Source of the DNA: Patescibacteria group bacterium
GTDB lineage: Bacteria > Patescibacteriota > Microgenomatia > JAMCYU01
Direction of reading: 5' to 3'
DNA: 64,000 nucleotides
NCBI GenBank assembly: GCA_023473585.1
Contig: JAMCYU010000001.1
Location: forward strand, 2,507-66,506
Under the pieces are notes generated by a model, which made no database searches, was not told the origin of the DNA, and saw only the letters and a program-made list of their open reading frames with translations. Below, piece by piece: positions 46,201-63,322 of the stretch. Position 1 is the stretch's first letter; each line of letters begins with the position of its first letter. Position numbers and translations under genes: made by a program.

Positions 46201-46620
46201 AATCGCTGCGGGATTAAGCAGGAAAAACAAAGCGGCAAATAAGGCTAGTTTATTTTGCTCGTATTTTGTTCCCTTAAAAAGGTTTTTATAGAGAAAATAG
46301 CAGCAAATAAATCCCAGGATATAAAAACAAACGGTAAAGATTTTAACGCCTAAATAGGCCGGAACACCAAGAGTCTTCAAAAAGAAAAATGGTAATTGCC
46401 AAAAAAGAAGCATGTATTTAAAAAAACTGAGGCCGTTATTTTGTTCTTCCCAAAGATACAAAGACCTTAAGAGATTATCTTGAGGTTTAAGAGGAAAAAT
46501 AAAATCTCCCCCAATATAAAAATTATTATCCCAAATAGACAAAATAAAGACAATTAAGATAATTATCGGAAGAAAATAAAAATAATTATTTTGACAAAAT
46601 CTGATCGCTTTTTTAATCAT
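43243..46620 (-). CDS. Giant polytopic membrane protein, paralog family A, with ~430-aa extra C-terminal extracytoplasmic extension
   Basis: 1125 aa. N-terminus …FYFLPIIILIVFILSIWDNNFYIGGDFIFPLKPQDNLLRSLYLWEEQNNGLSF… is nearly identical in pattern to 46613-48688. Shares …AKGPNPPFGEVY…FRTTSTV… and the C-terminal …IEYQPQKWFVWGIIVSLVAFLV anchor. Contains a perfect 21-nt tandem duplication (PTLQFSQ x2). Confidence 0.5.
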   Translation of the reverse strand: MIKKAIRFCQNNYFYFLPIIILIVFILSIWDNNFYIGGDFIFPLKPQDNLLRSLYLWEEQNNGLSFFKYMLLFWQLPFFFLKTLGVPAYLGVKIFTVCFYILGFICCYFLYKNLFKGTKYEQNKLALFAALFFLLNPAAILVLVGTLPLYGFPICLFFLLKFLETKKTFYILPFSFFVNISFFPDLPQAKLLITFCMAAFFLVLAYGYIQKISVIKLFQRLFLLSILTLLLNAFVFLPFVNDTLGAKGIYGQYSKEVTVYDGNADLYSAALPFTMRFFNSNLIDKKSNLGQFLSNPIFVVWTFSLWLFALLTTIFIKDKKAKTIIFFLLVPLVILIFIAKGPNPPFGEVYRLMLTKIPVFKLFRTTSTVIIAGAVFYSFFLTICAYYLSQKWKYGFIGLLIVNLLIFHPIYLGYKLEYSFGGGSQQKGISLPNEYFQLGDKLDGLKDDNKVLSLPLNDGYVHKNWFYSGQSILSWLTKKPLIHTSGVNLPSSPESFSSQEACLFSSLYNIGYVVEEKDAAGQEKTRQLPFPGENLINNNYFNLTKVEPSCQTPPIYIPKQLVYFQGNKNNLFLAASKLSRKQEVMVYQEGDDQDKNTQFLKDANSVIIESSSRNAAFDMKGRNYYRLFLGQENYLGEVFYPYVRINPGSFFYKIVLLKEQKEEEINVKNKKKLFDKELFYATKRISEIIKWGVQNQWWQDNLKRYGQKINKAIELSGDFGNQRDNLELVVEYLDRHQEKIEKLSQTTAFWNKEKLSSWREAFKSLKEIKPNNALPTLQFSQPTLQFSQLEYEIKTPVFGQYEASLDFGNNQSFFLSQGKKEFFLNNSSFGEINKQDLGTFTLEPKTNVFKVHLGQAVNLLDPKKWQFYNTNYLISNKLNSLLFENLNENLNLPKEISISLQEISDWQPNQLYLLKINFKKLKEDSKLNLLIKERKNLFDRLAGDWLPTDTVLLRDQLDKIENYQVLLRADRESLGAFIYLYSQDGKVLVDNIELTKVYLPKLVLASKIKKEDLSGGLILESTKISPVKYKISLLKTNEPFYLILSQSYDQGWKIYDGQKSLTDKNHYLVNGYANAWYLESSNQDRELTIEYQPQKWFVWGIIVSLVAFLVISLISLLQLIKRRKK
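44259..44300 (-). repeat. Perfect 21-nt tandem duplication (gagaaaattgtaaagtaggc[t/a]) x2, in frame
   Basis: Direct reading. Encodes PTLQFSQPTLQFSQ. Confidence 0.85.
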
Positions 46621-51787: not shown

Positions 51788-52944
51788 ATTTTTTTGAATA
51801 TCTCTAAATATTCGGCGGCGGCATTATTCCAGTTAAATTGACGGGTATGCCGCCTGGTTAAATCTAAATAATCATTGAATTTTTCATTATCCCAGGCCAA
51901 AACTTCATCAATTTTTTTCGTGATACTTTCTTCTTTTTGAGGATCAAAAAGCAAATTTTGATTGCCTATGACTTCAGGCAGGGCGCCGGCATTAGAACAA
52001 ATGGGCAAACAACCACAGGCAGAAGACTCCAGAATCGGCAGACCAAAACCCTCTTCAAAAGAAGGAAAAATAAAAAGCTTCGCAAAAGAATAAAGAACTC
52101 TTAATTCTTCTTTGGAAACAAAACCTAAAAACTTAACTTTTTTAGTTAAATTCATTTCTTCAAGATATTCCTTAAGTTTAGCGATTGTAAAATCTGGCAA
52201 CAACCCGCAAATAATCAACTGATAACCATCAAATTGTTTTATCTCTTTGAAAGCGTTGATTAGGCCAAAAATGTTTTTCCGTTCGTGGTTCGTGGCGTTG
52301 GTAAAAATAAACTTTTCATGTATTTGATACTTTTTCACAAGTTCTGAAAAGACGACTTCGTCTTTCTTCGGAAAGAAAAAGTTGTCTCTGCCCGGATAAA
52401 TGACTTGGATTTTCTTAGGTTCTGCCCGATAAACTTTTTCCAATTGTTTTTTTACAAAAAAAGAGTCGACGACAATACAATCGGCCCTTTTAATAACAAA
52501 CGGCATAAGAGTTTTCATATACATCACTAAATTCATGTAAATTCTTAACGGGTTGTGAGGATATTTTAAGAAACTTAAATCGTGGATTACGGTTAAAAAC
52601 TTAACTCCCTTGGGTTTAAAAAGAGGAAGGACAAAACTTGGGCTTAAGAAAATTTTAACCTTATAGTCTTTGATCAATTTTAAAACATATAAATTATCAA
52701 AAAAAATATTGACCAGTCTTGTGTCTATTCTCCTTAATAATTTTAGAAAAGAAGAGTCCGCCTTAATATAAGAGGCTATTTTCCCTAATCTTTTGTTGCC
52801 GGTCGAAAAAAAATAATATTTGTGCCCTTTGTCTTTTTGAAGAAGCGCCGTAAAAAGTCCGGCAATATAATTTTGGATTCCCGACGGTTTTTCTTCAAAC
52901 ATGCGAAGATTAACACCAATTAGGTCTTTTTGGCAACTGTCCAC
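51781..52944 (-). CDS. Glycosyltransferase family 4 (GT-B)
   Basis: …FIFPSFEEGFGLPILESSACGCLPICSNAGALPEVIG… (E-X7-E). 387 aa. Confidence 0.75.
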   Translation of the reverse strand: MDSCQKDLIGVNLRMFEEKPSGIQNYIAGLFTALLQKDKGHKYYFFSTGNKRLGKIASYIKADSSFLKLLRRIDTRLVNIFFDNLYVLKLIKDYKVKIFLSPSFVLPLFKPKGVKFLTVIHDLSFLKYPHNPLRIYMNLVMYMKTLMPFVIKRADCIVVDSFFVKKQLEKVYRAEPKKIQVIYPGRDNFFFPKKDEVVFSELVKKYQIHEKFIFTNATNHERKNIFGLINAFKEIKQFDGYQLIICGLLPDFTIAKLKEYLEEMNLTKKVKFLGFVSKEELRVLYSFAKLFIFPSFEEGFGLPILESSACGCLPICSNAGALPEVIGNQNLLFDPQKEESITKKIDEVLAWDNEKFNDYLDLTRRHTRQFNWNNAAAEYLEIFKKIC

Positions 52945-53597
52945 AATGATCCTCCTATATTGACGTTTCCAAAAACAGGTCTTAAAAAGGAAGGTGCGGG
53001 ATAAAAAATAATCTCGTCTTTTAAGATTTCAAATCCGGCCTGTTTTAAAAGAAACCTTAGGCTTTCCCGGTTAAATAAATAGAGATGCGTTTTGTCCTGA
53101 TAACCGAACCATTTATTCCCAAGAATCTTTACGAAAAGAGATGAAATATTGGGAGTTTGTAAAAACAAGAAACCGTCTTTTCTTAAAATCCTTTTTGCCT
53201 CAAGAAGAAAATTATAAGGAGATTGTAAATGTTCAATAACATCAATTCCGGTTATCAGATTAAAAATATTATCCTCAAAAGGTAAACCTTTATTAATATC
53301 GGCTTTTATTAATTTAGCCTTGGTGCGTTTTGCGGCTTCTTTAATGGCAAATTCCGAGACATCAAGGCCATAGGTTGTAAAGCCGTCTTTATCAAAAAGC
53401 GCCAATAAATTACCCAGGGCACAACCCACATCAAGCACTCTGACATTTTGCGGCTCGTAATTTCTAATCTTTTGGCAAATTTTTTCTTTATATAAGTACG
53501 AAAGATTGCCCGTCTTATATTCTAAACAGGTAAAATAGTTACTCTCTTTTCCTTTGAAATATTTTTCTTCAAAGCCACTTTTTTTTCGTGAAGTCAT
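52920..53597 (-). CDS. Class I SAM-dependent methyltransferase
   Basis: SAM-binding motif I …[17 protein letters not shown]… and …[11 protein letters not shown]…. ORF 52920-53654 overlaps the upstream acetyltransferase. Start taken at MTSRKKSG (ATG 53597), which still overlaps by ~29 nt. Confidence 0.65.
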
Positions 53598-54153
53598 AGT
53601 GTTTAATGATTTTGGCCGGTTGACCCGCAACCACGCAAAAGGCCGGCACATCATGAGTCACAACGGCATTGGCACCAATAATGGCGTGTTTGCCGATCCT
53701 AATATTCCCTAGAATAACGCTATTTACACCGATAAAACAATCGTCTTCGATGATAATTTCGCCCTTATAAACTATCGGCTGGTCAATAACCGGTTTCTTA
53801 ATATCCTCATATCCATGAGAATGATCCAAAATCGTCACTCTTTCTGACATTAAAACGTTATTGCCTATGCTTATTTTATTGGCGGCAATAATCATTGAAT
53901 AGGCTCCTATATGAACACGATTGCCGATTGTTAATTTCGGTTTTTCTTTTAAGTCGGTATTCGTTCCCATCCAGCAAAAAAGTCCCAAAGAGACGTCGTC
54001 GCCCAGACCGATATTTTCCGGGTGAGTCGTATTAAGAATCGGCCGAATACTTACGCCACTGCCTATTGACTTAAATCGTCTCGTTACAAACCACGTATAT
54101 AAATTAATCAAAATATTTAAAAAGGGACCGAAAACTTCTTGCGCTTTAGGCAT
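53569..54153 (-). CDS. Hexapeptide-repeat sugar O-acetyltransferase (Maa/WbbJ-like)
   Basis: …[36 protein letters not shown]… and …[50 protein letters not shown]…. 194 aa. Confidence 0.75.
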
Positions 54154-54164
54154 AAATTTCTTCC

Positions 54165-55193
54165 TTAAAGTTTAATTTTAATTTTTTGGGCAATCATCCT
54201 TGATAAGATTTTGCTTTTGTAAAAATCGGTCAACCTTATCAGGATAAATTTAGGCAAAAAAAGACACATTAAAGTATAAAACCAAAAACGAAAATCAATA
54301 AGACTCGCTTTTCGATATTTTAGATGATTAATTATTTCCTCAATTAAATCTTCAAATCTTCCGTAATTTCTAATTTGCACAAGTCCCACATAATTTTGAG
54401 CTACATAATCTTGGCAAATTTTTCTCACCTTTTCATATTTAGGCTCTGGTAAGGTTTTAGCAAAAACTTCTATCCAGGTTTGAACCGGCGACGGTTCATA
54501 AATGGCAGGTTTATGTCGACATTGGCTTTCATAAATTCCTACGGCAACGATATAGTCTTTTAAAAAGACGATTTTATGCTTCTTAAAGATAGAAAAAAAG
54601 GGGTAGGCCTGTGAGGTAAAAACATGACTGGAAAAAGGTCTATCCAAATATTTGACCTTAAAAGCTAAGCACGAAACTAAATATGTTGACCTAATAGCTG
54701 CCTCGATTAGCTCTCTTTTGTCACTAAGGGAAATAATCGTATCTTTTTTGGTTGAGGGGGGCGGCCAATAACGAACGGGAATTTTTGGATTAGATTCGAA
54801 TTGATAATAAGGCCTCGTCACGATACCGATATCCTCTCCCAACGAAAATCCGCTGACTATTTTGCTTAAAGCATCTTTAAGCAAAAGATCATCTTGGGCC
54901 ATCATGATCATGATCTCGCCGCTTAGATGTTTTTTAAAATTATTAAGATTGTCTCCGTAGCCAACATTGACCTTGTTTCGGAAAAACTTAATCCTTTGGT
55001 CTTTAAACGACTTAATAACTTCCTCGGTGTTGTCAACGGAACAATCATCATTAACGATGATTTCAAAATTATGATAACTTTGTCCCAAGATGCTTTTGAG
55101 AGCTTTTCCAATTGTTTTCTCACCATTATAACTTGGCAAACAAATGCTTAATTTTGGCTTGTTTTCTAAAGAAAAGCTTTGTGTGCTATTCAT
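54165..55193 (-). CDS. Glycosyltransferase family 2 (GT-A)
   Basis: …[45 protein letters not shown]…. 342 aa. Confidence 0.75.
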
Positions 55194-56433
55194 ATTGGCT
55201 GATAAATTTGTCGAACTTCTCCAAAAGATAATCGATCATTTCATGGGTAATTCCGGGATAAACCCCAATCCAAAAACCGTCATTGGTAATTTTATCAGAA
55301 TTTATTAAATCGCCGACAATCCGGTGTTTAGTCTTTAAGTAGGCCGGGTGTCTTAAAAGATTTCCCCCGAAAAGACTTCTGGTCCCGATTTTATTCTCTT
55401 CCAAGAAATTGACTATTTCCAAACGGCTAAATGGCGCTTTGTCACGGACAATCAGCATAAAACCAAACCAGCAAGGATCGCTTTCAGGTTCTGCCATCGG
55501 CAGAAGAAAATATTTTTGATGTTTTGACAAACCCTTATAAAGTTTAGCAAAATTTTCTTTTCTTATCTTTATAAACTTTGGCAGTTTTTTAAGTTGAGCT
55601 AAACCGATCGCCGCCTGAAAATCGGTTAATTTTAGATTGTAGCCAATCTGCGAATAAATATATTTATGGTCATAACCTAAGGGAAGTTTCCCTAATTTCC
55701 AGGAAAATCTTTTCCTGCAGGTATTGTCTTTTCCTGTCCCGCACCAACAGTCCCTACCCCAATCACGAAACTGCCTGACGGCTTTATATAATAAGGGGTT
55801 GTTGGTGACAACCGCCCCCCCTTCTCCCATCGTGATAATATGAGCCGGGTAAAAACTATAGGTCGAAATATCGCCGAAAGTACCCACCAATTTACCATCA
55901 TAGGTTGATCCTAAAGCGTCAGCGCAATCTTCGATCAACCAAAGATGATATTTCTTAACTAACGCCATAATCTTTTTTATATTAAAGGGGTTACCTAAAG
56001 TGTGAGCCATCATGATCGCTCTAGTTTTTTTGCTGATGGCTTTTTCCACCATTTCCGGCAGCGCATTTTTGGTTTTAAGATCAACATCCACAAAAACCGG
56101 AAGACAGCCGTTTTGAATAATCGGATTAACGGTGGTGGGAAAGCTCGTCGCCAGGGTAATAACTTCATCTTTGGGTTTTAAGGTTTTATTACCTAAGCTC
56201 TTTTGATTAACCAGAGCGGAAATGGCTAAAAGATTAGCTGAAGAGCCGGAATTGACTAAGGTCACATACTTTATCCCTAAATAATCGGCAAACTTTTTTT
56301 CAAATTCTTCGGCAAATCTTCCTTCGGTCCACCAGCCGTCCCTAGCGGCGGCGATGGCATTATTAATCTCCTCTTGGTCATAAACTTTCCCCGAGGCGGG
56401 GATGTATGTTTGACCCGGTTTGAATTTTTGCAT
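55186..56433 (-). CDS. ddhC: CDP-4-keto-6-deoxyglucose 3-dehydratase (E1; DdhC/RfbH/AscC-like PMP-dependent dehydratase)
   Basis: DegT/AHBA-synthase fold (…TYIPASGKVYDQEEINNAIAAARDGWWTEGRFAEEFEKKFADYLG…SGSSANLLAISAL…). The active-site position carries His, not Lys (…SFYPAHIITMGEGGAV…). Has a Cys cluster (…RDCWCGTGKDNTCRKRF…), as in the [2Fe-2S]-containing E1 family. Confidence 0.7.
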   Translation of the reverse strand: MQKFKPGQTYIPASGKVYDQEEINNAIAAARDGWWTEGRFAEEFEKKFADYLGIKYVTLVNSGSSANLLAISALVNQKSLGNKTLKPKDEVITLATSFPTTVNPIIQNGCLPVFVDVDLKTKNALPEMVEKAISKKTRAIMMAHTLGNPFNIKKIMALVKKYHLWLIEDCADALGSTYDGKLVGTFGDISTYSFYPAHIITMGEGGAVVTNNPLLYKAVRQFRDWGRDCWCGTGKDNTCRKRFSWKLGKLPLGYDHKYIYSQIGYNLKLTDFQAAIGLAQLKKLPKFIKIRKENFAKLYKGLSKHQKYFLLPMAEPESDPCWFGFMLIVRDKAPFSRLEIVNFLEENKIGTRSLFGGNLLRHPAYLKTKHRIVGDLINSDKITNDGFWIGVYPGITHEMIDYLLEKFDKFISQYE

Positions 56434-56496
56434 AGTTTTTAAAAAGATAAGGCGCGCGTTGATTTTGTGTCTATTATACTATAAGATTAGGTCAAG
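56434..56496 (+). promoter_or_regulatory. Divergent intergenic region with candidate promoter for the plus-strand SDR gene
   Basis: TTGATTttgtgtctattatacTATAAGat followed by RBS AGGT and ATG at 56497. TTGATT, ~17-nt spacer, TATAAG. Confidence 0.35.
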
Positions 56497-57537
56497 ATGA
56501 ACAAGATCTATCTGGAAGATTTTCGTTTCCTTCTTTCGCAAAAATTACCATGGGAGAACTTACGGAATAAAACTCTTCTTATTACCGGAGCTTCGGGTTT
56601 TATTGCCTCCTATCTTATTAAATTTCTGCTTTTTTTAAATAAAGAAATGGGTCTTCATCTTAAGGTTATTGGGATTGTCAGAAATAAAAAGAATGGGGAC
56701 CAAAAATTTGCTGAATATAAAAAGAGCCAAGATTTGAAAATTCTTGTTCAGGATATTGCTAACCCTCTTAAAATAAAGGAGAAAGTTCATTTTATTATTC
56801 ATGCCGCCAGCCAGGCCAGCCCCAAATATTATAATCTCGATCCCGTTGGGACTTTAAAAGCTAATGTTTTAGGCACCTATAACCTTTTGGAGTTGGCGAA
56901 AAATAACCCTCTTGAGAGTTTTCTTTTCTTAAGTTCTGGTGAAATTTACGGAATGACACCGGCAAAAAAAATAACCAACGAAACCTCCTATGGTTATCTT
57001 GACCCCTTGAATATCAGATCTTGTTATGGCGAAAGCAAACGTTTAGGAGAAACGCTGTGCGTTTCCTACTCTCACCAATACCAAATTCCCGCGAAAATTG
57101 TCAGGCTTTATCATACTTATGGGCCGGGAGTGAATTTAAATGATGGCAGGGTTTTCGCTGATTTTATCAAAAACATCTTAACTAATGAGAATATTGTTCT
57201 TAAAAGCAGCGGCAAAACAACGCGTTCTTTTTCTTATATCGCCGATACTGTTTGTGGATTATTCACAGTGCTTTTCAAAGGAAAAAATCAGGAAGCATAT
57301 AATCTTGCTAACGAGAATGCCACTGTTTCTATAAAAGAACTGGCCGAAACTTTAATTAAATTATTTCCGCAAAAAAAATTGAAAATGATTTTTGAAAAGA
57401 GAGACAAGAAAGAGCTTTATTCTGAAAGTAAAATTACTGATAATAATCCAGATACTAAAAAATTATCTTCGTTAGGTTGGCAGCCGCATTTTTCTTTAAA
57501 AGAAGGTTTTAAAAGAACGATTGAAAGTTATAACTAG
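56497..57537 (+). CDS. NAD(P)-dependent epimerase/dehydratase-family SDR (possible CDP-4-keto-3,6-dideoxyhexose reductase, RfbJ/RfbS-like)
   Basis: …LLITGASGFIASYLIKFL… Rossmann motif. Catalytic …YGESKRLGE… (YxxxK). 346 aa. The specific substrate is inferred only from context. Confidence 0.55.
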   Translation: MNKIYLEDFRFLLSQKLPWENLRNKTLLITGASGFIASYLIKFLLFLNKEMGLHLKVIGIVRNKKNGDQKFAEYKKSQDLKILVQDIANPLKIKEKVHFIIHAASQASPKYYNLDPVGTLKANVLGTYNLLELAKNNPLESFLFLSSGEIYGMTPAKKITNETSYGYLDPLNIRSCYGESKRLGETLCVSYSHQYQIPAKIVRLYHTYGPGVNLNDGRVFADFIKNILTNENIVLKSSGKTTRSFSYIADTVCGLFTVLFKGKNQEAYNLANENATVSIKELAETLIKLFPQKKLKMIFEKRDKKELYSESKITDNNPDTKKLSSLGWQPHFSLKEGFKRTIESYN

Positions 57538-57543
57538 GTAAGA

Positions 57544-59343
57544 TTACTGAAGTTCTTCCCTGATATGATTTATTTCCTCATCTTCTAAAAAGGGAAACAT
57601 TTCGTCCATTGGCGCCGATACAAGTTTACCGTCGGTTGTTTTTTTTGAAGAAACGCCCAGAATATCCTGCCACTTTGGACAGACAATTTCGCAAATAACC
57701 GTCTTTGGACTTTTAAGGATTAAGGGTATCTTTTTTGATAAATCATCTTCTTTCTCCAGCCTATAAAAGGTAAGACCGTAAGCCTTGGCGATTTTTTCCG
57801 TATCCGGAATTAAAACTCCAGATTTGGGCCCCTCGCCGATTAAACGACCGTTAAAAAAGTTCTTCTGCGTCGTCCGGATCGCTAAATAACCATGATTATT
57901 GATGACAAAAATTTTAGCCGGTATTTTATGATAGCCAATCGTGGCTAACTCATGAATATTTAATTGCAATGATCCATCTCCGGTAATACAGATAATCTTT
58001 GCTCGTTTTTGTGCCGCCCAAACACCTAAAATAGCCGGAAGATTATAACCCATCGTTAAAGTGGCGCCGGGAATAATCATTCGCTGCTCTTTTTTCAATT
58101 TTAAGGTTTGCGTACTAATATAGGCCGTCACTCCAGCGTCAGCAATAAAAATATCGCCGGGTTTTGAAGATTTGGCAACTGCCCAAATGGCCTTATACAT
58201 ATTAATTTCTTTAAGTTGTTTATCGGTTTTCGGGATAAAAAGAGAGTATTTGTTTTTTATCTCCTGGCATTTTTTTAACCAAAAACCATGATCATGTTCT
58301 TTAATCTTGTCCTTTAAAATCGCCCTACTTAATTTATCAATGAAACATTTGGCGTCAGAAATAATTAACGAATCGATTTTAATGGTTTTCTTCTTGTGTT
58401 CCTCGGGGTCAATATCAATCACGATTTTATAAGAAAGCGGTGAGAATTTATCATATTCGTGACCAATAAAAGGAACCGCCAAACGACTCCCCAAAGAAAT
58501 AATGAGGTCTGAATTTTGGATAATCATATTGGCAGCTCGATCACCCCTGGTTCCTCCGTGCCCCATATAAAACGGGTTATCATACTCTAAAAGGTCAAAA
58601 CCCATATCGGGGACAACCACCGGGATTCTTAAAAGGGAAATAAGCTTTCGAAATTCCTTAACGGCACCGGAAAGTCTTACCCCGCCGCCGGCAATCATGA
58701 CCGGTTTTTTAAATTTTTGGAGAAGGCTTATGACTTGCCCTATTTCCTGGTCAGTAGCACAAGGAACCGTCTTTTTAGTTTCATTTTGGTTAAAAGGAAG
58801 AAGACCAAGAGGCTCAATTTCTGAAGCGGCAATATCTGACGGGATATCAAGCCATACAGGACCAGGTCTTCCAAACCGAGCTAAAAAATAAGCCTTTTCG
58901 ATCTGCCATCTTGCATCTTCCGGTTTTTCAATAATCGAAGCGTATTTAGTCAATGTTTTAACAATCGGGATAATATTAACTTCCTGAATTCCAAACTGGC
59001 GAAGAGAAGAAACCTCTGAAAATTGAGTCATTTGGGATTTTTTGGCCTGGCTGGACAAGAAAATAACCGGAATTGAATTTTGATAAGCTTCCAAAAGTCC
59101 GGTAATCGCATTCGTTGAGCCGGGACCGGAAGTGACCATGACGGCGCCGGGGATATTTTTTGTTTTCGCGTACGCCTCAGCAGCCATGGCCGCCGCTTGC
59201 TCGTGATGACAACAGATATAATTGATTTTCTTGTGACAGACAACGGCGTCATTTAAATACATCGCCCCGCCGCCGGCTAAAGTAAAAATATGGCTAATCC
59301 CTTTCTTGTAAAGAAAATCAATGATGTAATCAGCAACTCTCAT
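57544..59343 (-). CDS. Thiamine-diphosphate-dependent enzyme, acetolactate-synthase-large-subunit-like (candidate YerE-like sugar C-branching enzyme)
   Basis: 599 aa. N-terminal Pyr domain …GISHIFTLAGGGAMYLNDAVV…HEQAAAMAAEAYAKT…VMVTSGPGSTNAITGL…. Central FAD/NAD-like domain. C-terminal PP domain …ITGDGSLQLNIHELATI… (GDG-x-N motif). Confidence 0.6.
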   Translation of the reverse strand: MRVADYIIDFLYKKGISHIFTLAGGGAMYLNDAVVCHKKINYICCHHEQAAAMAAEAYAKTKNIPGAVMVTSGPGSTNAITGLLEAYQNSIPVIFLSSQAKKSQMTQFSEVSSLRQFGIQEVNIIPIVKTLTKYASIIEKPEDARWQIEKAYFLARFGRPGPVWLDIPSDIAASEIEPLGLLPFNQNETKKTVPCATDQEIGQVISLLQKFKKPVMIAGGGVRLSGAVKEFRKLISLLRIPVVVPDMGFDLLEYDNPFYMGHGGTRGDRAANMIIQNSDLIISLGSRLAVPFIGHEYDKFSPLSYKIVIDIDPEEHKKKTIKIDSLIISDAKCFIDKLSRAILKDKIKEHDHGFWLKKCQEIKNKYSLFIPKTDKQLKEINMYKAIWAVAKSSKPGDIFIADAGVTAYISTQTLKLKKEQRMIIPGATLTMGYNLPAILGVWAAQKRAKIICITGDGSLQLNIHELATIGYHKIPAKIFVINNHGYLAIRTTQKNFFNGRLIGEGPKSGVLIPDTEKIAKAYGLTFYRLEKEDDLSKKIPLILKSPKTVICEIVCPKWQDILGVSSKKTTDGKLVSAPMDEMFPFLEDEEINHIREELQ

Positions 59344-59346
59344 TGT

Positions 59347-60522
59347 TTAAATTTTAGCAAGGGCGATTTTAATCTTTTTTAGGCCTTCTTTTAAATTCTC
59401 AATTGAGGTTGCGTAAGAAATGCGAAGATAACCTTCTCCGTATTTTCCAAAAGCCGTTCCCGGCAAAAGTGCAACTTGAGCCTTGTTAAGAAGATAATCC
59501 GCTAGCCAGGCGGAACTTTTTTTGAATTTTTTAATATTCGGAAAAACATAGAAAGCTCCTTCCGGTTGTTGACAGGAAACACCGGGAATATTATTTAAAA
59601 GCCGAACGACGATATCTCTTCTTTTCTCAAATTCAAAAACCATTTTTTTTGCTTCTTTTTGTGGACCGGTCAGGGCTTCTAAACCGGCATATTGGGTAAA
59701 AGTCGCCGTACAACCAACTAAATGGGTCAATAATGAATCGATTTTGTCTGTAAGAACTGGGGGCATGACTAAATAGCCCAAGCGCCAACCGGTCATCGAA
59801 TAGGTTTTAGAAAAACCGTCAACGATAATCGTCCTCTCCTTCATCTTCGGCAAACTAAAAATACTTTCATATTCCTTATGGTCATAAAGAAGATGCGAAT
59901 AGATTTCATCGGTTAGAACCCAGGTTTTGGTTTTTTTTACCAATTCGGCAATCTCCATGAGAATACTTTTGGACATAACGCCGCCGGTCGGATTGCTCGG
60001 TGAATTTAAAATAACAAGTTTGGTTTTTTTTGAAAAATGTTTTTTAAAGATTCTCATGTCGAAACCAAAACTGTTCTCCTCCAAAAGAGGGATCGGTTTT
60101 CTCATGCCGCCAAAAAAATCGACTAAGGTTTCGTAGGTCGGAAAACCGGGGTTAGGATAAATAATTTCATCACCCTTTTCTATGGTTGCCGCCATGGCAA
60201 CAAAAATAGCGGTTTTACCGCTGGGGGTGACGGCTATTGAATCGCTGAAAACATTAATTTTTCTTTCTTTAGAAATTTTTTTGGCAAGAGCTTCTCTTAA
60301 GGGAGAAATTCCCAACGGAGGATTATACTTAGTTAAACCGTTTTGAAGAGCTTTTATCCCTGCCTGGGTAATATTCTTGGGGGTTGGAAAATCAGGCTGA
60401 CCAATTTCAAAATGAATTATTTTTTTGCCTTGTTTTTCCAAAACTTCCGCTTTTGCCAAAACCTGATAAGCGCCCTCTGCCCTAAGCAGCTTTATTCTTT
60501 CTGTAAATTTAAGAGTTTTCAT
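59347..60522 (-). CDS. Class I/II (aspartate-aminotransferase-fold) PLP-dependent aminotransferase
   Basis: …YNPPLGISPLREALAKKI…, …NSPSNPTGGVM…, and the PLP-lysine region …DGFSKTYSMTGWRLGYLV…. 391 aa. Confidence 0.7.
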   Translation of the reverse strand: MKTLKFTERIKLLRAEGAYQVLAKAEVLEKQGKKIIHFEIGQPDFPTPKNITQAGIKALQNGLTKYNPPLGISPLREALAKKISKERKINVFSDSIAVTPSGKTAIFVAMAATIEKGDEIIYPNPGFPTYETLVDFFGGMRKPIPLLEENSFGFDMRIFKKHFSKKTKLVILNSPSNPTGGVMSKSILMEIAELVKKTKTWVLTDEIYSHLLYDHKEYESIFSLPKMKERTIIVDGFSKTYSMTGWRLGYLVMPPVLTDKIDSLLTHLVGCTATFTQYAGLEALTGPQKEAKKMVFEFEKRRDIVVRLLNNIPGVSCQQPEGAFYVFPNIKKFKKSSAWLADYLLNKAQVALLPGTAFGKYGEGYLRISYATSIENLKEGLKKIKIALAKI

Positions 60523-61499
60523 CTTTTCTCGTCCTTAAGGTGTTTTTGGTACCATAAAAAAGTCTCTTTGATCCCCTCTTTGAAGGCATAATTGGTTCGC
60601 CAGCCAAGATTCCTGATTTTTCTGTCATTAAGATGTTGGTAGGGAATTTCGTTTTTTGCGGTATTTAAGATTTTGTAGGGAATTTTAACTTTTAAAATTC
60701 CTTCTATTTTTTTAACTAACGCCAAAACCGACAATGTCTCGCTGGAAGAAAAATTAAAAGCTTCACCTTTAATTTTGGCAAAATTTTGTAAAAGAAACAA
60801 ATAGCCGCAAACGACGTCTTTAACATAAAGATAATCTCTTACATATTTGCCGTTACTTCTTAATTCTAAAGGTTTATTTTTTATCACGGCCGTGCATATT
60901 CCGGGAATAATCCTATCAGAATGTAAATCGCCTTCTCCGTAGACATTGCCAAAACGCGTTACGGCTACCGGCAATCCATAAGTTTTATAGTAAGCCAAAG
61001 AGATTAGGTCTTCGCAGGATTTAGAAACATCATAAGGATGATCGCCTTTCAGGGCGTCTTCTTCCCAATATTTTCCCTTGATTAATTTTCCATAGGCCTT
61101 ATCGGAGGAAGCAACGATTATTCCCTTGACAAAAGAAGAGAGTCTTGCGGCTTCTAAAAGATTAATTGTCCCCATGACGTTTGTTTCAAAGGCTTCCCGC
61201 GGCTTTTCTAAGGAAGCGGTAACCGTTGAATAGGCGGCTAAATGAAAAACATATTCGGGTTGATATCTTCGGAAAAGTTCGAGAATCTTTTTTTCGTTTC
61301 TGATATCCGTCAATTCCAATTTGACTTTATCTTTGAGTTTATTAAGAGAAAAGGTGGAGTTCTTTTTAAGTTCAATATCAACAACAATAACTTTTGCCCC
61401 AAGTTCAAGAAGCTTTTCGACTAAATGACCACCGATAAAACCCGTTCCTCCCGTCACTAAAATTGTTTTTCCCAAAAGTCCTGATTTAATCATCTTCAT
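60519..61499 (-). CDS. ddhB: CDP-glucose 4,6-dehydratase-like extended SDR (DdhB/RfbG-like)
   Basis: …LLGKTILVTGGTGFIGGHLVEKLLELGAKV… (compare DdhB FWQGKRVFVTGHTGFKG). Catalytic region …ASSDKAYGK… (compare SDKCYEN). 326 aa. Adjacent to ddhA. Confidence 0.5.
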   Translation of the reverse strand: MKMIKSGLLGKTILVTGGTGFIGGHLVEKLLELGAKVIVVDIELKKNSTFSLNKLKDKVKLELTDIRNEKKILELFRRYQPEYVFHLAAYSTVTASLEKPREAFETNVMGTINLLEAARLSSFVKGIIVASSDKAYGKLIKGKYWEEDALKGDHPYDVSKSCEDLISLAYYKTYGLPVAVTRFGNVYGEGDLHSDRIIPGICTAVIKNKPLELRSNGKYVRDYLYVKDVVCGYLFLLQNFAKIKGEAFNFSSSETLSVLALVKKIEGILKVKIPYKILNTAKNEIPYQHLNDRKIRNLGWRTNYAFKEGIKETFLWYQKHLKDEKR

Positions 61500-61505
61500 A
61501 AAAGA

Positions 61506-62285
61506 TTAGTCTTTCCAAATTTTCCACTTTGGATCTTCTTTCCAAAGACGGTTAAGATCATCCACGTCAGGATAAGTGTCCATCGAGTGCCAGAAACCGT
61601 CATGGATAAAAAGCGAAAGCTCTCTTTTGCGGATTAATCTTTTTAGGGCCGGGTGTTCCATTTCCCCTGTTTTTAAGTATCTAAAAAATTCCCTTTTAAA
61701 AACCATAAACCCGCCGTTAACCCATTCATGAAGTACCGGCTTCTCAATAAATTTATCAATAATGCCGCTTCGGTTGGTTTTTAAAAGCCCGTATTTGCTT
61801 CTGGGGTGAACGCCGATAATTGTCCCGATTTTATTTTTCTTTTGATGAAACTTGACCAATTCATTAAGATCAACGTCGCCGACACCGTCTCCATAAGTCA
61901 CCATAAAATCTTCGTCTTCTTGAGGGATATAGGGTTTAAGCCTTAAGATTCTTTCTCCGGGCAAAGTATTTTCGCCGGTATCCACAAAGGTGATTTTAAA
62001 ATCGTCGCCGGTTTTTCCGTCATTTTTGTAAACTCTGGCAAAACCGCTTTTGGTAAAAAGGGTAAAATTGTTGGCAAAATATTTTTGATTCAAAAAATAA
62101 TCTTTAATGTAGTCGCCTTTGTACCCCAAAGCCAGAATAAAGTCATTGAAGCCGTAATGGGCATAGATTTTCATGATGTGCCAAAGAATCGGCTTACCGC
62201 CGACATTAACCATGGGTTTAGGTTTAAATTCCGTTTCTTCTTTTAACCTGTATCCTATTCCCCCGCAAAGAATAATTGTTTTCAT
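61506..62285 (-). CDS. ddhA: Glucose-1-phosphate cytidylyltransferase
   Basis: MKTIILCGGIGYRLKEETEFKPKPMVNVGGKPILWHIMKIYAHYGFNDFILALGYKG… closely matches the RfbF/DdhA family N-terminus. 259 aa. Confidence 0.8.
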   Translation of the reverse strand: MKTIILCGGIGYRLKEETEFKPKPMVNVGGKPILWHIMKIYAHYGFNDFILALGYKGDYIKDYFLNQKYFANNFTLFTKSGFARVYKNDGKTGDDFKITFVDTGENTLPGERILRLKPYIPQEDEDFMVTYGDGVGDVDLNELVKFHQKKNKIGTIIGVHPRSKYGLLKTNRSGIIDKFIEKPVLHEWVNGGFMVFKREFFRYLKTGEMEHPALKRLIRKRELSLFIHDGFWHSMDTYPDVDDLNRLWKEDPKWKIWKD

Positions 62286-63322
62286 TTTAAAAAATATTGT
62301 TTACTTAAAAAAGCGTATGTATTATATACCTTTTTAAGATTTTGTGCCCGGTTGATCTTGTTTTTGCCCGCATGTTGAATGGCTCTGATTATTTTCCAAA
62401 CAAATTTTGGCAGCAATAGGGCCATAATGATAAATAACCAAAATAATAAATTTCTTTTTAATCTTGGCTCGAGTTTGACTAGTCTTTTATCAAATTTAAT
62501 TAAATTAGAACTATTCGAATATAATTTAATAGCTGGCTGCAAAATAATGAAATTCTTATAAAAATTTAGCTTGAAAGCATTGAGTTCTTTTGGAGAAATA
62601 ACTTTAAAAACATAATCGGTATAAGTTTCAAACATTAAACGATTCTGTTTGGAGACTTGGTAATGCGTCAGGATGTCACCTTGAGACCAGGTAATAACCA
62701 TATAATTCTTTGAGCTAAAAAGGGCGCCGTCTTTTTGGGTCGCTTCAAAAATTGCCTTAATCCATGCCGTTTCTCGACAATCAGTCACCTTATTTTCGAT
62801 TCCTTTACTATTCTTAATGACCAAGCCCGCCACATGTCCGGCGGCGACTTTATTAAAAAAATGAACGATTTTTTCTCCCGAGGAATTCTTGGGAAGAACG
62901 ATATCTTTTTCAATGGTAATAATACTTTTACGAAGGCCTTTCCCTATAAATTTTCTTTCGATTAAATTCAGGCGAAGAAAACCATAATTTTTTTTATCAA
63001 TTATTTTTTTTATTTGCTCCAGCGTGTCTTCAAAAAGAATAAAATCGTCATCACCCATCGTAAAAAGGTATTTTCCCCTGGCGTAGGAAAAAACTTTTTG
63101 ATAATTTAATTCAGCACCAATGTTAATTTTGTTACGGTAATATCTAATTCGCTTATCTTTAAAAGACTTGATCACTTGTTGTGTTTCGTCGGTAGAGGCG
63201 TTATCGGAAATAATCAGTTCAAAATCCTTAAAAGTTTGTTTAAGAGTAATGGCAATCGTTGCCTTTAAAAGCTCATAACGGTTGTAGGTAGGAATAACGA
63301 TAGAAAAAAAAGGTTTTGTCAT
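62282..63322 (-). CDS. Glycosyltransferase family 2 (GT-A)
   Basis: …FFSIVIPTYNRYELLKATIAITLKQTFKDFELIISDNASTDET…. 346 aa. Confidence 0.75.
   Translation of the reverse strand: MTKPFFSIVIPTYNRYELLKATIAITLKQTFKDFELIISDNASTDETQQVIKSFKDKRIRYYRNKINIGAELNYQKVFSYARGKYLFTMGDDDFILFEDTLEQIKKIIDKKNYGFLRLNLIERKFIGKGLRKSIITIEKDIVLPKNSSGEKIVHFFNKVAAGHVAGLVIKNSKGIENKVTDCRETAWIKAIFEATQKDGALFSSKNYMVITWSQGDILTHYQVSKQNRLMFETYTDYVFKVISPKELNAFKLNFYKNFIILQPAIKLYSNSSNLIKFDKRLVKLEPRLKRNLLFWLFIIMALLLPKFVWKIIRAIQHAGKNKINRAQNLKKVYNTYAFLSKQYFLK

What the first reader, a model, noticed from the sequence alone, without database searches (positions are those of the whole stretch)
55186..62285. CDP-3,6-dideoxyhexose pathway core (ddhA, ddhB-like, E1 dehydratase) combined with an acetolactate-synthase-like TPP enzyme and an aspartate-aminotransferase-fold aminotransferase: candidate pathway to a branched and/or aminated dideoxy sugar
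Three enzymes of the 3,6-dideoxyhexose route are recognisable. One is glucose-1-phosphate cytidylyltransferase (61506-62285). One is a CDP-glucose 4,6-dehydratase-like SDR (60519-61499). The third is the PMP-dependent E1 3-dehydratase (55186-56433), with His replacing the Schiff-base Lys (…SFYPAHIITMGEGG…) and a Cys cluster.

In Yersinia pseudotuberculosis the same core plus a TPP-dependent, ALS-like enzyme (YerE) and a reductase yields the two-carbon-branched sugar yersiniose. Here an ALS-large-subunit-like TPP enzyme (57544-59343) and an extra SDR (56497-57537, opposite strand) are present.

A class-I aminotransferase (59347-60522) is also present. That is not the DegT type usual in sugar pathways, which hints at an additional amination. 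No E3 reductase (ddhD) is visible in the window.
Basis: partly seen in the sequence, partly recalled or inferred. Interest (0 to 1): 0.65.

Follow-up and report, generated by a model that had tools for sequence, protein, structure and literature searches.

The report
Branched deoxysugar pathway with amino-acid-fed carboligase
A tiny-genome (CPR/Patescibacteria) bacterium carries a gene cassette for a rare carbon-branched surface sugar, and its puzzling aminotransferase most likely makes the building block for the branch (probably from homoserine) and does not aminate the sugar, which would be an undescribed variant of a known pathway.

Summary
They are a glucose-1-P cytidylyltransferase-like enzyme, a CDP-glucose 4,6-dehydratase-like SDR, a true E1/RfbH 3-dehydratase (His replaces Lys), an ALS-like ThDP enzyme, a class-I aminotransferase (AT) and a UXS-like SDR. 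No E3 lies in the 64 kb.

The ThDP enzyme is not an acetolactate synthase. Its closest characterised relative is JanthE, a ketone-accepting 'YerE-like' carboligase. 30 of 35 large homologous loci carry an E1-like gene.

A window-type AT lies within 300 bp upstream of the ThDP gene in 33 of 74 loci. All six AT homologues sampled blind sit beside a ThDP enzyme. In six distinct CPR loci the pair abuts aspartate kinase and aspartate-semialdehyde dehydrogenase, in four of them with homoserine dehydrogenase.

Best reading: the AT converts homoserine to 4-hydroxy-2-oxobutanoate, the carboligase attaches it at C4 of CDP-3,6-dideoxy-4-ketoglucose, and the SDR reduces the branch. The product would be an undescribed C3-branched sugar. 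Published schemes supply donors only through aldolases.

Caveats: the window lacks the homoserine genes, and its E1 alone has Ala at an otherwise invariant Fe-S cysteine.

The parts
61506..62285 (-). Glucose-1-phosphate cytidylyltransferase-like enzyme (step 1: forms the CDP-hexose)
   Evidence: TIGR02623 is the best hit at 251 bits (below the 300 cutoff), aligned over the full length 1-257/255. 189 bits to 1tzf. N-terminal GGxGxRL motif. 59-74% identical orthologues occupy the same position in CPR loci.
60519..61499 (-). CDP-glucose 4,6-dehydratase-like extended SDR (step 2: forms the 4-keto-6-deoxy sugar)
   Evidence: TIGR02622 is the best hit at 210 bits (below the 278 cutoff). The SSDKAYG dyad, YDVSK and GEGDLHSDRIIP motifs align with TSDKCY and GGGDWALDRIVP of the CDP-glucose dehydratase 1rkx. 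The gene overlaps the AT gene by 4 nt.
59347..60522 (-). Class-I (AspAT-fold) amino-acid aminotransferase. Proposed to supply the donor: L-homoserine to 4-hydroxy-2-oxobutanoate
   Evidence: PF00155, 225 bits. Below all NCBIfam equivalog cutoffs; the best is archaeal AspAT at 355 vs 550. Hallmark motifs NPTG, DEIY, FSK..GWRLGY and LRISYA are present. 66-68% identical to the ATs of L007 and L010, which abut asd-hom-AK. A window-type AT lies within 300 bp upstream of TPP in 33/74 loci. 6/6 blind-sampled family members are TPP-adjacent. 3-nt gap to the TPP gene.
57544..59343 (-). JanthE/YerE-like ThDP-dependent carboligase (attaches the acyl branch to the C4 keto group of the CDP-sugar)
   Evidence: Three TPP domains. 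HHEQ catalytic Glu and GDGS...NNHGY ThDP/Mg motif. JanthE 8rph 350 bits, against PpYerE 219 and plant AHAS 218. Below all ALS cutoffs. E1-like gene present in 30/35 large homologous loci.
56497..57537 (+). UXS-like extended SDR. Proposed reductase of the branch carbonyl (YerF/ErwF role)
   Evidence: PF01370 and GDP_Man_Dehyd. Best solved relative is UDP-glucuronate decarboxylase at 157 bits. GASGFIA and YGESK motifs. Homologues at 35-52% identity directly follow the TPP gene in L024, L033, L039, L078 and L094, and 357-359 aa SDRs do so in L097 and L099. In the window it is inverted: convergent on TPP (6 nt) and divergent from E1 (63 nt).
55186..56433 (-). E1 (RfbH/DdhC/AscC) PMP-dependent CDP-4-keto-6-deoxyglucose 3-dehydratase (step 3: C3 deoxygenation)
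   Evidence: NF011936 663 bits, above the 423 cutoff. 532 bits to 3bcx. H220, C251, C253 and C261 equivalents are conserved, but A193 with C192 is unique among 43 sequences. The same sequence occurs in the independent assembly L092.
62282..63322 (-). GT2 glycosyltransferase at the head of the operon (candidate transferase)
   Evidence: PF00535, 91 bits. 4-nt overlap with the cytidylyltransferase gene.
54165..55193 (-). GT2 glycosyltransferase downstream of E1 (candidate transferase)
   Evidence: PF00535, 97 bits. 8-nt overlap with E1. N-terminal domain 38% identical to the other flanking GT2.
52920..54153 (-). Hexapeptide O-acetyltransferase (53569-54153) and SAM methyltransferase (52920-53654). 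Possible tailoring enzymes; their membership in the pathway is inferred only
   Evidence: PF00132, with WbbJ-like as the best NCBIfam hit, and PF13489. Methyltransferases also follow the AT-TPP-SDR module in L094, L097 and L099.

Best explanation
The cassette makes a CDP-activated, C4-acyl-branched 3,6-dideoxyhexose for the cell-surface polysaccharide of a Patescibacteria (CPR) bacterium. Steps shown by family assignment: glucose-1-P is converted to CDP-glucose by the cytidylyltransferase, then to CDP-4-keto-6-deoxyglucose by the 4,6-dehydratase, then to CDP-3,6-dideoxy-4-ketoglucose by E1. No dedicated E3 is present, so the reductant is unknown. Steps inferred from comparative genomics: the class-I aminotransferase works in the deaminating direction and converts an amino acid, most likely L-homoserine, into 4-hydroxy-2-oxobutanoate. 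The JanthE-like ThDP enzyme decarboxylates this and adds the resulting activated 3-hydroxypropanal unit to the C4 ketone, giving a 4-C-(3-hydroxypropanoyl) tertiary alcohol. The UXS-like SDR reduces the branch carbonyl to give a 1,3-dihydroxypropyl (C3) branch. The flanking GT2s transfer the sugar, and the acetyl- and methyltransferases may decorate it. If the AT uses oxaloacetate as its amino acceptor, then in the loci that carry the kinase/asd/hom trio the amino group would cycle (homoserine + oxaloacetate gives 4-hydroxy-2-oxobutanoate + aspartate, and aspartate is converted back to homoserine). That cycling is speculation.
For: Family assignments. The TPP enzyme is closest to JanthE, a characterised ketone-accepting carboligase that accepts C3-C6 2-oxoacid donors (PMC12188165, PMC12247030). 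Related characterised enzymes ErwE and MyGE accept 4-hydroxy-2-oxobutanoate in vitro (PMC9306805). The genes GT2-CytT-dehydratase-AT-TPP are tightly packed, with junctions of -4, 6, -4 and 3 nt. A window-type AT lies within 300 bp upstream of TPP in 33/74 loci, and an E1-like gene occurs in 30/35 large loci. AT-family members chosen only for sitting on long contigs are TPP-adjacent in 6/6 cases, in three different orientations. The ATs stay 60-65% identical to the window's while their TPP partners drop to 32-36%. AT linkage occurs in three separate TPP clades. Aspartate kinase plus asd, with hom in four of the six loci, abut the AT-TPP pair in L007, L010, L013, L099 and L094, and L096 has a kinase remnant (L008 duplicates L007). 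These occur in two arrangements and with two different AT families. The kinases in L007, L010 and L099 are about 295 aa with no ACT domain listed. The window's AT and TPP are 66-68% and 65-68% identical to the homoserine-linked pairs of L007 and L010. CPR bacteria generally lack amino-acid biosynthesis (established knowledge), so a private aspartate-to-homoserine route beside a carboligase is meaningful.
Against: The window itself has no asd, hom or AK, so homoserine supply in this genome is unverified. L009 has a 65%-identical TPP with no AT, and L011 combines a different AT family with DmpFG around a single TPP; neither is explained. L094 lacks a recognisable hom. AT substrate specificity cannot be read from sequence, and the enzyme keeps the general AspAT motifs. 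E1 lacks the otherwise invariant C193 and no E3 is nearby, so whether 3-deoxygenation occurs is uncertain. No natural C3-branched 3,6-dideoxyhexose is known to me or was found in the searchable literature. Neither the cytidylyltransferase nor the dehydratase reaches its NCBIfam cutoff.
Confidence: 0.55

Rival explanations
1. Same branched-sugar pathway, and the AT still supplies the donor, but from a different amino acid (for example methionine to 4-methylthio-2-oxobutanoate, 2-aminobutyrate, leucine or norvaline). The branch would then not be 3-hydroxypropanoyl.
For: The window lacks the homoserine trio. JanthE accepts 2-oxobutanoate, 2-oxovalerate and 4-methyl-2-oxovalerate (PMC12188165). 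ErwE and MyGE accept the methionine-derived keto acid (PMC9306805). Most AT-linked loci (about 28 of 33) show no homoserine genes.
Against: Most of those 2-oxoacids are ordinary metabolites in prototrophs and would not need a dedicated AT. The only amino-acid pathway genes recruited next to AT-TPP in the sampled loci are aspartate-to-homoserine genes (six distinct loci). The window's AT is 66-68% identical to the homoserine-linked ATs.
Confidence: 0.2
2. One reading: the class-I AT aminates the sugar (a ring ketone or the branch ketone), giving an amino-branched dideoxy sugar.
For: PMC9306805 states that transaminases modify acetyl branches in some secondary-metabolite sugars. In L011 an AT co-occurs with an aldolase-type donor supply (DmpFG) around a single TPP gene, which leaves that AT without an obvious donor-supply role.
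Against: The AT has no DegT-family (PF01041) match and is an AspAT-fold enzyme of amino-acid metabolism with all the alpha-amino-acid AT motifs. The linkage to AK, asd and hom has no explanation under this model. L051's AT plus DmpFG co-occurrence resolves into two TPP genes, each with its own donor supply. The window also encodes an SDR suited to reducing the same ketone.
Confidence: 0.12
3. The E1 step does not work as in Yersinia (A193, no E3). The carboligase acceptor would then be CDP-4-keto-6-deoxyglucose (keeping the 3-OH), or E1 would act by an E3-independent, ColD-like route.
For: The window's E1 is the only one of 43 with Ala at the invariant C193 position, and the change is reproduced in an independent assembly. 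No E3 lies in the window, and only 4 of the 91 TPP-homologue loci screened have any E3- or FNR-like gene. ColD-like dehydratases lacking Fe-S cysteines replace E1 in seven AT-TPP loci.
Against: E1 is otherwise intact: 663 bits, full length, with His220 and three of the four ligands, and with Cys at the adjacent position 192, which could ligate the cluster. Most E1 orthologues that have all four cysteines also lack a neighbouring E3, so a housekeeping reductant is probably the norm.
Confidence: 0.1
4. The TPP enzyme is an ordinary acetolactate/acetohydroxyacid synthase and the AT an ordinary aspartate aminotransferase, both placed in a glycan locus by chance.
For: Public annotations call the homologues 'acetolactate synthase' and 'aspartate aminotransferase'. 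The best NCBIfam hits are ALS and AspAT.
Against: All ALS and AspAT equivalog cutoffs are missed by wide margins (346 vs 538; 355 vs 550). There is no ilvN or ilvC in the window. The linkage to E1 and the cytidylyltransferase recurs across dozens of loci. The enzyme is closest to JanthE, not to AHAS.
Confidence: 0.02

Closest known systems
Erwiniose pathway of Pectobacterium atrosepticum (ErwE carboligase, ErwF reductase, ErwI aldolase, ErwJ acetaldehyde dehydrogenase) and the 'unifying scheme' for acyl-branched sugars (PMC9306805)
   Same: The proposed acceptor is the same (CDP-3,6-dideoxy-4-keto-D-glucose, made by cytidylyltransferase, 4,6-dehydratase and E1). A ThDP carboligase adds a gamma-hydroxy 2-oxoacid-derived acyl unit at C4. 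An NAD(P)H reductase then reduces the branch. ErwE accepts 4-hydroxy-2-oxobutanoate in vitro.
   Different: Donor supply differs. The window has no ErwI/ErwJ (DmpG/DmpF-like) pair and instead has a class-I aminotransferase translationally packed against the carboligase. The predicted branch is C3, not C4. The host is a CPR bacterium. Ten of the loci I retrieved do have the ErwI/J-type pair, so both variants coexist in nature.
JanthE from Janthinobacterium sp. HH01 (PDB 8rph, 8rpi, 8rpj)
   Same: It is the closest characterised and solved relative of the window's TPP enzyme (350 bits over residues 2-588). It is a ketone-accepting carboligase with a broad 2-oxoacid donor range.
   Different: JanthE has the unusual CDG ThDP motif, whereas the window has the canonical GDG. 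JanthE's physiological substrates are unknown. In my NJ tree JanthE groups with a DmpFG-linked TPP (L051_6099), not with the window's AT-linked CPR clade.
Yersiniose A pathway of Yersinia pseudotuberculosis (YerE/YerF with ddhA, ddhB, ddhC/E1, ddhD/E3)
   Same: Same overall logic and the same core enzymes. The window's E1 scores 532 bits against the Yersinia E1 structure.
   Different: YerE uses pyruvate (C2 branch) and needs no donor-supply enzyme. The solved YerE homologue PpYerE is no closer to the window enzyme than plant AHAS is (219 vs 218 bits). Yersinia encodes E3 in its cluster, and the window has none.
Synthetic homoserine-to-4-hydroxy-2-oxobutanoate transamination routes used in metabolic engineering (own knowledge; PMC7918591 co-mentions homoserine, 4-hydroxy-2-oxobutanoate and thiamine but was not opened)
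   Same: The same proposed chemical step, homoserine deamination by a class-I aminotransferase.
   Different: Those are engineered uses of promiscuous enzymes. Here a dedicated, conserved natural enzyme would feed glycan biosynthesis.

Membership tests
YerE-like ThDP-dependent sugar-branching carboligases (decarboxylase superfamily) | Three-domain ThDP fold (TPP_enzyme_N, M and C) | tested here: met
   PF02776, PF00205 and PF02775 all match.
YerE-like ThDP-dependent sugar-branching carboligases (decarboxylase superfamily) | Catalytic Glu and GDG...NN ThDP/Mg2+ motif | tested here: met
   HHEQ at residues 46-49 and GDGS at 455 with NNHGY at 482. These residues are invariant in the 38-sequence orthogroup alignment.
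YerE-like ThDP-dependent sugar-branching carboligases (decarboxylase superfamily) | Closer to characterised ketone-accepting members than to AHAS | tested here: inconclusive
   Met for JanthE (350 bits vs 218 for AHAS). Not met for PpYerE (219 vs 218). Sequences of YpYerE, ErwE, MMAR_2332 and MyGE were not available to test.
YerE-like ThDP-dependent sugar-branching carboligases (decarboxylase superfamily) | Genomic linkage to the genes that make CDP-3,6-dideoxy-4-ketoglucose | tested here: met
   The cytidylyltransferase, dehydratase and E1 are in the same cassette. An E1-like gene occurs in 30/35 large homologous loci.
YerE-like ThDP-dependent sugar-branching carboligases (decarboxylase superfamily) | Carboligation of a 2-oxoacid donor onto a keto-sugar acceptor | not testable with these tools
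   Requires an enzyme assay.
Biosynthetic acetolactate/acetohydroxyacid synthase large subunit | Reaches the curated equivalog score (TIGR00118 and the PRK models) | tested here: not met
   346 bits vs a cutoff of 538. All other ALS models are missed by more than 400 bits.
Biosynthetic acetolactate/acetohydroxyacid synthase large subunit | Partner genes ilvN (small subunit) and ilvC nearby | tested here: not met
   None among the window ORFs of 120 aa or more scanned against Pfam, leaving out a few that overlap larger genes. The rest of the genome was not testable.
E1 / RfbH / DdhC / AscC CDP-4-keto-6-deoxyglucose 3-dehydratase | Reaches the curated equivalog score | tested here: met
   NF011936 663 bits vs a cutoff of 423. 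532 bits to 3bcx.
E1 / RfbH / DdhC / AscC CDP-4-keto-6-deoxyglucose 3-dehydratase | His in place of the PLP Schiff-base Lys | tested here: met
   SFYPAH aligns with Yersinia H220. This His is invariant in all 51 E1-like sequences from the loci.
E1 / RfbH / DdhC / AscC CDP-4-keto-6-deoxyglucose 3-dehydratase | Four Cys ligands of the [2Fe-2S] cluster (C193, C251, C253, C261; ligand identity recalled from memory and matched by the invariant columns) | tested here: inconclusive
   C251, C253 and C261 are present. Position 193 is Ala (codon GCT), with Cys at the adjacent variable position 192. This is unique among the 43 E1 sequences compared (window plus 42 orthologues from the loci).
E1 / RfbH / DdhC / AscC CDP-4-keto-6-deoxyglucose 3-dehydratase | Cognate E3 reductase (Fer2 + FAD_binding_6 + NAD_binding_1) | tested here: not met
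   Absent from the 64-kb window (and the Pfam scans). Present in only 1 of the 91 loci as a full E3, and in 3 as a short FNR-like protein.
CDP-glucose 4,6-dehydratase (TIGR02622) | Curated score, and the Asp-Lys dyad with YxxxK | tested here: inconclusive
   The score of 210 is below the 278 cutoff. However, it is the best-scoring model, and the SDK dyad, YDVSK and GxGD..DRIxP motifs match 1rkx.
Glucose-1-phosphate cytidylyltransferase (TIGR02623) | Curated score and full-length match | tested here: inconclusive
   251 bits is below the 300 cutoff, but the alignment is end to end (1-257 of 255) and the protein scores 189 bits against 1tzf.
DegT/DnrJ/EryC1 sugar aminotransferases (the usual nucleotide-sugar aminating enzymes) | PF01041 fold-type membership for the 59347-60522 protein | tested here: not met
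   Only PF00155 (225 bits), plus a weak Cys_Met_Meta_PP match. No PF01041 hit.
Class-I (AspAT-fold) alpha-amino-acid aminotransferases | PF00155 match with the Schiff-base Lys, the PLP-phosphate Arg, the NPTG Asn, the DEIY Asp/Tyr and the C-terminal carboxylate-binding Arg | tested here: met
   Motifs found at residues 177, 205, 237-250 and 366. 282 bits to the Pyrococcus AT 1dju. No specific equivalog cutoff is reached.
Erwiniose-type donor supply (ErwI aldolase / ErwJ dehydrogenase) | A DmpG/DmpF-like pair adjacent to the carboligase | tested here: not met
   tblastn with the L011 DmpF and DmpG proteins found no hit in the window. The pair is present in 10 other loci.

The most novel reading that the evidence does not exclude
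CPR bacteria, and many uncultured marine and soil bacteria, use a dedicated AspAT-fold aminotransferase as the natural donor-supply enzyme for ThDP-dependent sugar branching. Some CPR genomes carry a private aspartate kinase, asd and homoserine dehydrogenase set whose apparent purpose is to make homoserine for 4-hydroxy-2-oxobutanoate, possibly recycling the amino group through oxaloacetate and aspartate. The product would be a so far undescribed C3-branched (1,3-dihydroxypropyl) 3,6-dideoxyhexose on the cell surface. It would be made by an E1 that works without E3 and, in this genome, with a shifted fourth Fe-S ligand.
Probability: 0.35. Interest if true: 0.7.

Novelty: new variant of a known kind. 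Interest (0 to 1): 0.55.

Why it matters
Acyl-branched deoxysugars such as yersiniose, erwiniose and caryophyllose are rare surface determinants. Their ThDP carboligases are sought after as biocatalysts for making chiral tertiary alcohols. The published biosynthetic scheme supplies the donor only through aldolases.

A conserved aminotransferase–carboligase module would add a second natural donor route. It would predict a new sugar structure and offer matched enzyme pairs for cascade biocatalysis starting from amino acids. It would also suggest where to look for the still-unknown physiological substrates of JanthE-type enzymes.

For CPR biology, it would show organisms with minimal metabolism keeping a fragment of amino-acid biosynthesis apparently only to decorate their surface glycan. 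That suggests the glycan matters for their episymbiotic lifestyle.

Tried and rejected
1. Genome-collection scan with the single TPP protein. It returned only six loci at 41% identity or less. It was useful only after I added the metagenome scan with an orthogroup alignment.
2. Search of the window for asd, hom, AK, dmpF, dmpG and a DHDPS-type aldolase by tblastn. No hits.
3. E3 search by a ferredoxin/FNR regex, by tblastn with a Pfam-verified E3 from L046 and with short FNR-like proteins from L071, L086 and L087, and by Pfam scans of window ORFs of 120 aa or more. Nothing found in the window.
4. Promoter and terminator consensus scans of 54-64 kb. Counts were at the level of shuffled controls (25 vs 27; 12 vs 10), so no operon boundaries can be drawn from them.
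5. Reading AT specificity from sequence motifs. The enzyme keeps all the generic AspAT motifs, including a Lys in SGKTA that may correspond to the acidic-substrate Lys of Thermus AspAT (recalled from memory). This does not discriminate between substrates, so I dropped it.
6. I considered that the roughly 60%-identical 'aspartate aminotransferases' abundant in CPR genomes might be housekeeping enzymes. Rejected after 6/6 blind context samples proved to be TPP-adjacent.
7. I considered the AT plus DmpFG co-occurrence as evidence against a donor-supply role. For L051 it is resolved by two TPP genes. L011 remains unexplained.
8. Literature searches for a natural homoserine or aminotransferase link to branched sugars. 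Nothing found. One query failed on syntax.
9. Structure prediction and fold search were not used, because sequence-level matches to solved structures were already decisive.

Full report
**Observation**

They carry strong, full-length family matches, so chance is not an issue.

- **E1 (55186-56433, minus strand).** It is a genuine RfbH/DdhC/AscC 3-dehydratase. It scores 663 bits against the NCBIfam equivalog (cutoff 423) and 532 bits against the Yersinia E1 crystal structure. The His of SFYPAH aligns with the His that replaces the Schiff-base Lys.
- **Cytidylyltransferase (61506-62285) and dehydratase-like SDR (60519-61499).** Each has the CDP-glucose enzyme as its best model but falls below the curated cutoff (251 vs 300; 210 vs 278). 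The SDR has the Asp-Lys 'SDK' dyad and the GxGD..DRIxP motif of the CDP-glucose 4,6-dehydratase 1rkx, not the 'TDE' motif of dTDP-glucose dehydratases.
- **Aminotransferase (59347-60522).** It is Pfam Aminotran_1_2, not DegT.
- **TPP enzyme (57544-59343).** It has all three ThDP domains but misses every acetolactate-synthase cutoff by a wide margin (346 vs 538).
- **E3.** No E3-type reductase is present anywhere in the 64 kb.

**Source and setting**

The aminotransferase is identical to a protein annotated from a Patescibacteria (CPR) MAG. An independent assembly (L092, GCA_023380895.1) matches the window at 99.8% DNA identity over 8.7 kb.

The window holds a dcw/peptidoglycan cluster at 0.7-17 kb. 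A roughly 42-kb surface-polysaccharide locus follows. It contains an initiating sugar transferase at 21.5 kb, many GT1, GT2 and GT4 genes, and a Wzy-like membrane protein. G+C drops from 0.40-0.44 to 0.33-0.37 beyond about 38 kb.

GT2, cytidylyltransferase, dehydratase, AT and TPP are packed with junctions of -4, 6, -4 and 3 nt. The UXS-like SDR (56497-57537, plus strand) is convergent on the TPP gene (6 nt) and divergent from E1 (63 nt). Promoter and terminator scans were at chance level.

**What the TPP enzyme is**

Its closest solved and characterised relative is JanthE (8rph, 350 bits over nearly the full length). PpYerE (5ahk, 219 bits) and plant AHAS (218 bits) lie well behind. JanthE is a 'YerE-like' carboligase that couples decarboxylated 2-oxoacids (C3 to C6) to ketones, and its physiological substrates are unknown (PMC12188165, PMC12247030).

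The window enzyme has the catalytic Glu (HHEQ) and a canonical GDG...NN motif.

Its close orthologues (45-75% identity) are almost all from CPR bacteria: Roizmanbacteria, Beckwithbacteria and Microgenomates.

Across the 91 retrieved loci, 30 of the 35 with at least 5 kb on both sides carry an E1-like gene. The recurring order is cytidylyltransferase, dehydratase, E1, AT, TPP. The sugar-branching role is therefore well supported, and the acetolactate-synthase reading is effectively excluded. No ilvN or ilvC is present in the window.

**What the aminotransferase does**

1. *The AT-TPP pair is conserved.* A window-type AT lies within 300 bp upstream of the TPP gene in 33 of the 74 loci that have enough upstream sequence.
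2. *The family is not housekeeping.* CPR genomes contain many ATs at about 60% identity that are annotated 'aspartate aminotransferase'. I sampled six of them, chosen only for sitting on long contigs. All six sit directly beside a TPP enzyme, in three different orientations.
3. *The AT is the conserved half of the pair.* Those ATs remain 60-65% identical to the window's while their TPP partners are only 32-36% identical. AT linkage appears in three separate clades of a context-annotated NJ tree.
4. *Aspartate-pathway genes are recruited.* In six distinct CPR loci the pair abuts aspartate-pathway genes. L007 (with its duplicate contig L008), L010, L013 and L099 have the full aspartate kinase, asd and homoserine dehydrogenase set. 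L094 has the kinase and asd. L096 has an 86-residue kinase remnant. These occur in two arrangements (convergent downstream, divergent upstream) and with two different AT families.
5. *Orthology to the window.* The window's AT and TPP are 66-68% and 65-68% identical to the homoserine-linked pairs of L007 and L010.

CPR bacteria generally lack amino-acid biosynthesis (established knowledge). A private aspartate-to-homoserine route next to a carboligase, with kinases of about 295 aa for which Pfam lists no ACT regulatory domain, therefore indicates that homoserine is a pathway input. A ThDP enzyme can use homoserine only after deamination to 4-hydroxy-2-oxobutanoate. The related enzymes ErwE and MyGE accept exactly this compound in vitro (PMC9306805).

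**Relation to the published scheme**

The 'unifying scheme' for acyl-branched sugars supplies donors through aldolases. For erwiniose, ErwI and ErwJ (BphI/BphJ-like) make 4-hydroxy-2-oxopentanoate. Aldolases are also proposed for caryophyllose and gastriose. Transamination is mentioned there only as an in-vitro route to substrates.

Ten of my loci have the DmpG/DmpF-type pair, so that published variant is also common in these metagenomes. The window has no such pair.

An apparent conflict was AT and DmpFG occurring together in L051. It resolves because L051 has two TPP genes: one is AT-linked, and the other is DmpFG-linked and sister to JanthE. L011, which has one TPP, DmpFG and a different AT family, remains unexplained.

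Literature searches found nothing that links an aminotransferase or homoserine to sugar branching, or that places this chemistry in CPR bacteria. The searchable library is incomplete.

**Proposed mechanism**

Steps shown by family assignment:
1. Glucose-1-P is converted to CDP-glucose.
2. CDP-glucose is converted to CDP-4-keto-6-deoxyglucose.
3. E1 converts this to CDP-3,6-dideoxy-4-ketoglucose.

Steps inferred:
4. The AT converts L-homoserine to 4-hydroxy-2-oxobutanoate.
5. The carboligase adds the decarboxylated unit at C4, giving a 4-C-(3-hydroxypropanoyl) tertiary alcohol.
6. The UXS-like SDR reduces the branch carbonyl, giving a 1,3-dihydroxypropyl (C3) branch. Homologues of this SDR at 35-52% identity directly follow the TPP gene in L024, L033, L039, L078 and L094.
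7. The flanking GT2s transfer the sugar. The neighbouring acetyltransferase and methyltransferase may tailor it.

I rate the branched-sugar pathway at about 0.85, the donor-supply role of the AT at about 0.65, and homoserine specifically at about 0.45-0.5.

**Open problems**

- The window has no asd, hom or kinase gene, so homoserine supply in this genome is unverified.
- In an alignment with 42 E1 orthologues from the loci (43-69% identical to the window's E1), C193, H220, C251, C253 and C261 (Yersinia numbering) are invariant except in the window's E1. It has Ala193 (codon GCT) and a Cys at the variable neighbouring position 192. The change is reproduced in the independent assembly. The fourth Fe-S ligand is therefore either shifted by one residue or lost.
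- E3 is missing here and in nearly all related loci. One locus has a full E3 (Pfam-verified), and three have a short FNR-like protein lacking the ferredoxin domain. A housekeeping reductant seems to be the norm.
- In seven AT-TPP loci a ColD-like dehydratase (His present, no Fe-S cysteines) replaces E1.

**Verdict**

The system is a new variant of a known kind, a YerE/ErwE-type acyl-branched deoxysugar pathway in which an aminotransferase replaces the aldolase as donor supplier. It is found in CPR bacteria and is widespread in metagenomes. Interest is moderate to good. The model refines an active area of glycobiology and biocatalysis and makes concrete, testable predictions, but it rests on comparative genomics, and the homoserine genes are absent from this particular window.

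Noticed in passing
window 55186-56433 (E1 residues 170-171; Yersinia numbering 192-193): The window's E1 is the only one of 43 E1 sequences with Ala at the otherwise invariant Cys193 position. It has Cys at the variable neighbouring position 192 (EDCADALG vs EDxCDALG). The same sequence occurs in an independent assembly, so this is not an assembly error.
   Followed up: partly
L031, L040, L057, L061, L063, L085, L091 (E1-like hits at 32-36% identity, upstream of AT-TPP): In these marine loci the gene in the E1 position keeps the active-site His but lacks all Fe-S cysteines (S251, L253, I261, A193). That makes it a ColD-like, E3-independent 3-dehydratase within the same cytidylyltransferase-SDR-X-AT-TPP cassette.
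   Followed up: partly
L071 6116-6841; L086 3866-4687; L087 6248-6997: Short FNR-like proteins (241-274 aa, mutually 36-48% identical, no ferredoxin domain) sit next to E1 in three loci. They could be an alternative, truncated E3. The full three-domain E3 was seen only in L046 (4592-5590).
   Followed up: partly
L009/L090 (three TPP genes), L017, L019/L020, L051 (two each): Several loci encode two or three paralogous ThDP carboligases, each next to a different donor-supply gene set (AT, DmpFG or a DHDPS-family aldolase). This suggests several different branched sugars per glycan locus.
   Followed up: partly
L051 around 6099 (second TPP gene) and JanthE (PDB 8rph): In the NJ tree JanthE is sister to a TPP gene that lies beside DmpF/DmpG-like genes. 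This hints that JanthE's unknown physiological donor is an aldolase-made 4-hydroxy-2-oxoacid.
   Followed up: no
window 24837-25944 (-): A GT4-family glycosyltransferase appears split into two ORFs: the N-domain (Glyco_transf_4) at 25420-25944 and the C-domain (Glycos_transf_1) at 24837-25433, overlapping by 14 nt. It is either a frameshifted pseudogene or a genuinely split gene.
   Followed up: no
window 39407-40858 (-): A B12-binding radical-SAM enzyme is embedded in the polysaccharide locus. It is a possible C-methylating or other tailoring enzyme for a sugar.
   Followed up: no
window 40842-42902, 43243-46620, 46613-48688 (-), also 27979-29376: Four large ORFs (465-1125 aa) within the glycan locus have no Pfam match at E <= 1e-5. 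Related loci carry YfhO or GT-C-type membrane proteins at comparable positions.
   Followed up: no
window about 38000-64000: G+C drops from 0.40-0.44 to 0.33-0.37 across the distal part of the polysaccharide locus, which includes the cassette. This is typical of variable or horizontally exchanged glycan loci.
   Followed up: no
L095 7234-9014; L099 834-2835: Split transketolase-like or E1_dh-type ThDP enzyme pairs lie close to the AT-TPP module. They recall the two-component ThDP systems that add C2 branches in antibiotic sugar pathways.
   Followed up: no
window 54165-55193 and 62282-63322 (-): The two GT2 genes that bracket the cassette share a 38%-identical catalytic domain and a similar C-terminal hydrophobic tail (..LPKF..). 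They are possibly paralogous transferases for the branched sugar.
   Followed up: partly
window 53569-53654: The acetyltransferase and methyltransferase ORFs overlap by 86 nt as listed. The methyltransferase start is probably a downstream ATG and not the first in-frame start.
   Followed up: no
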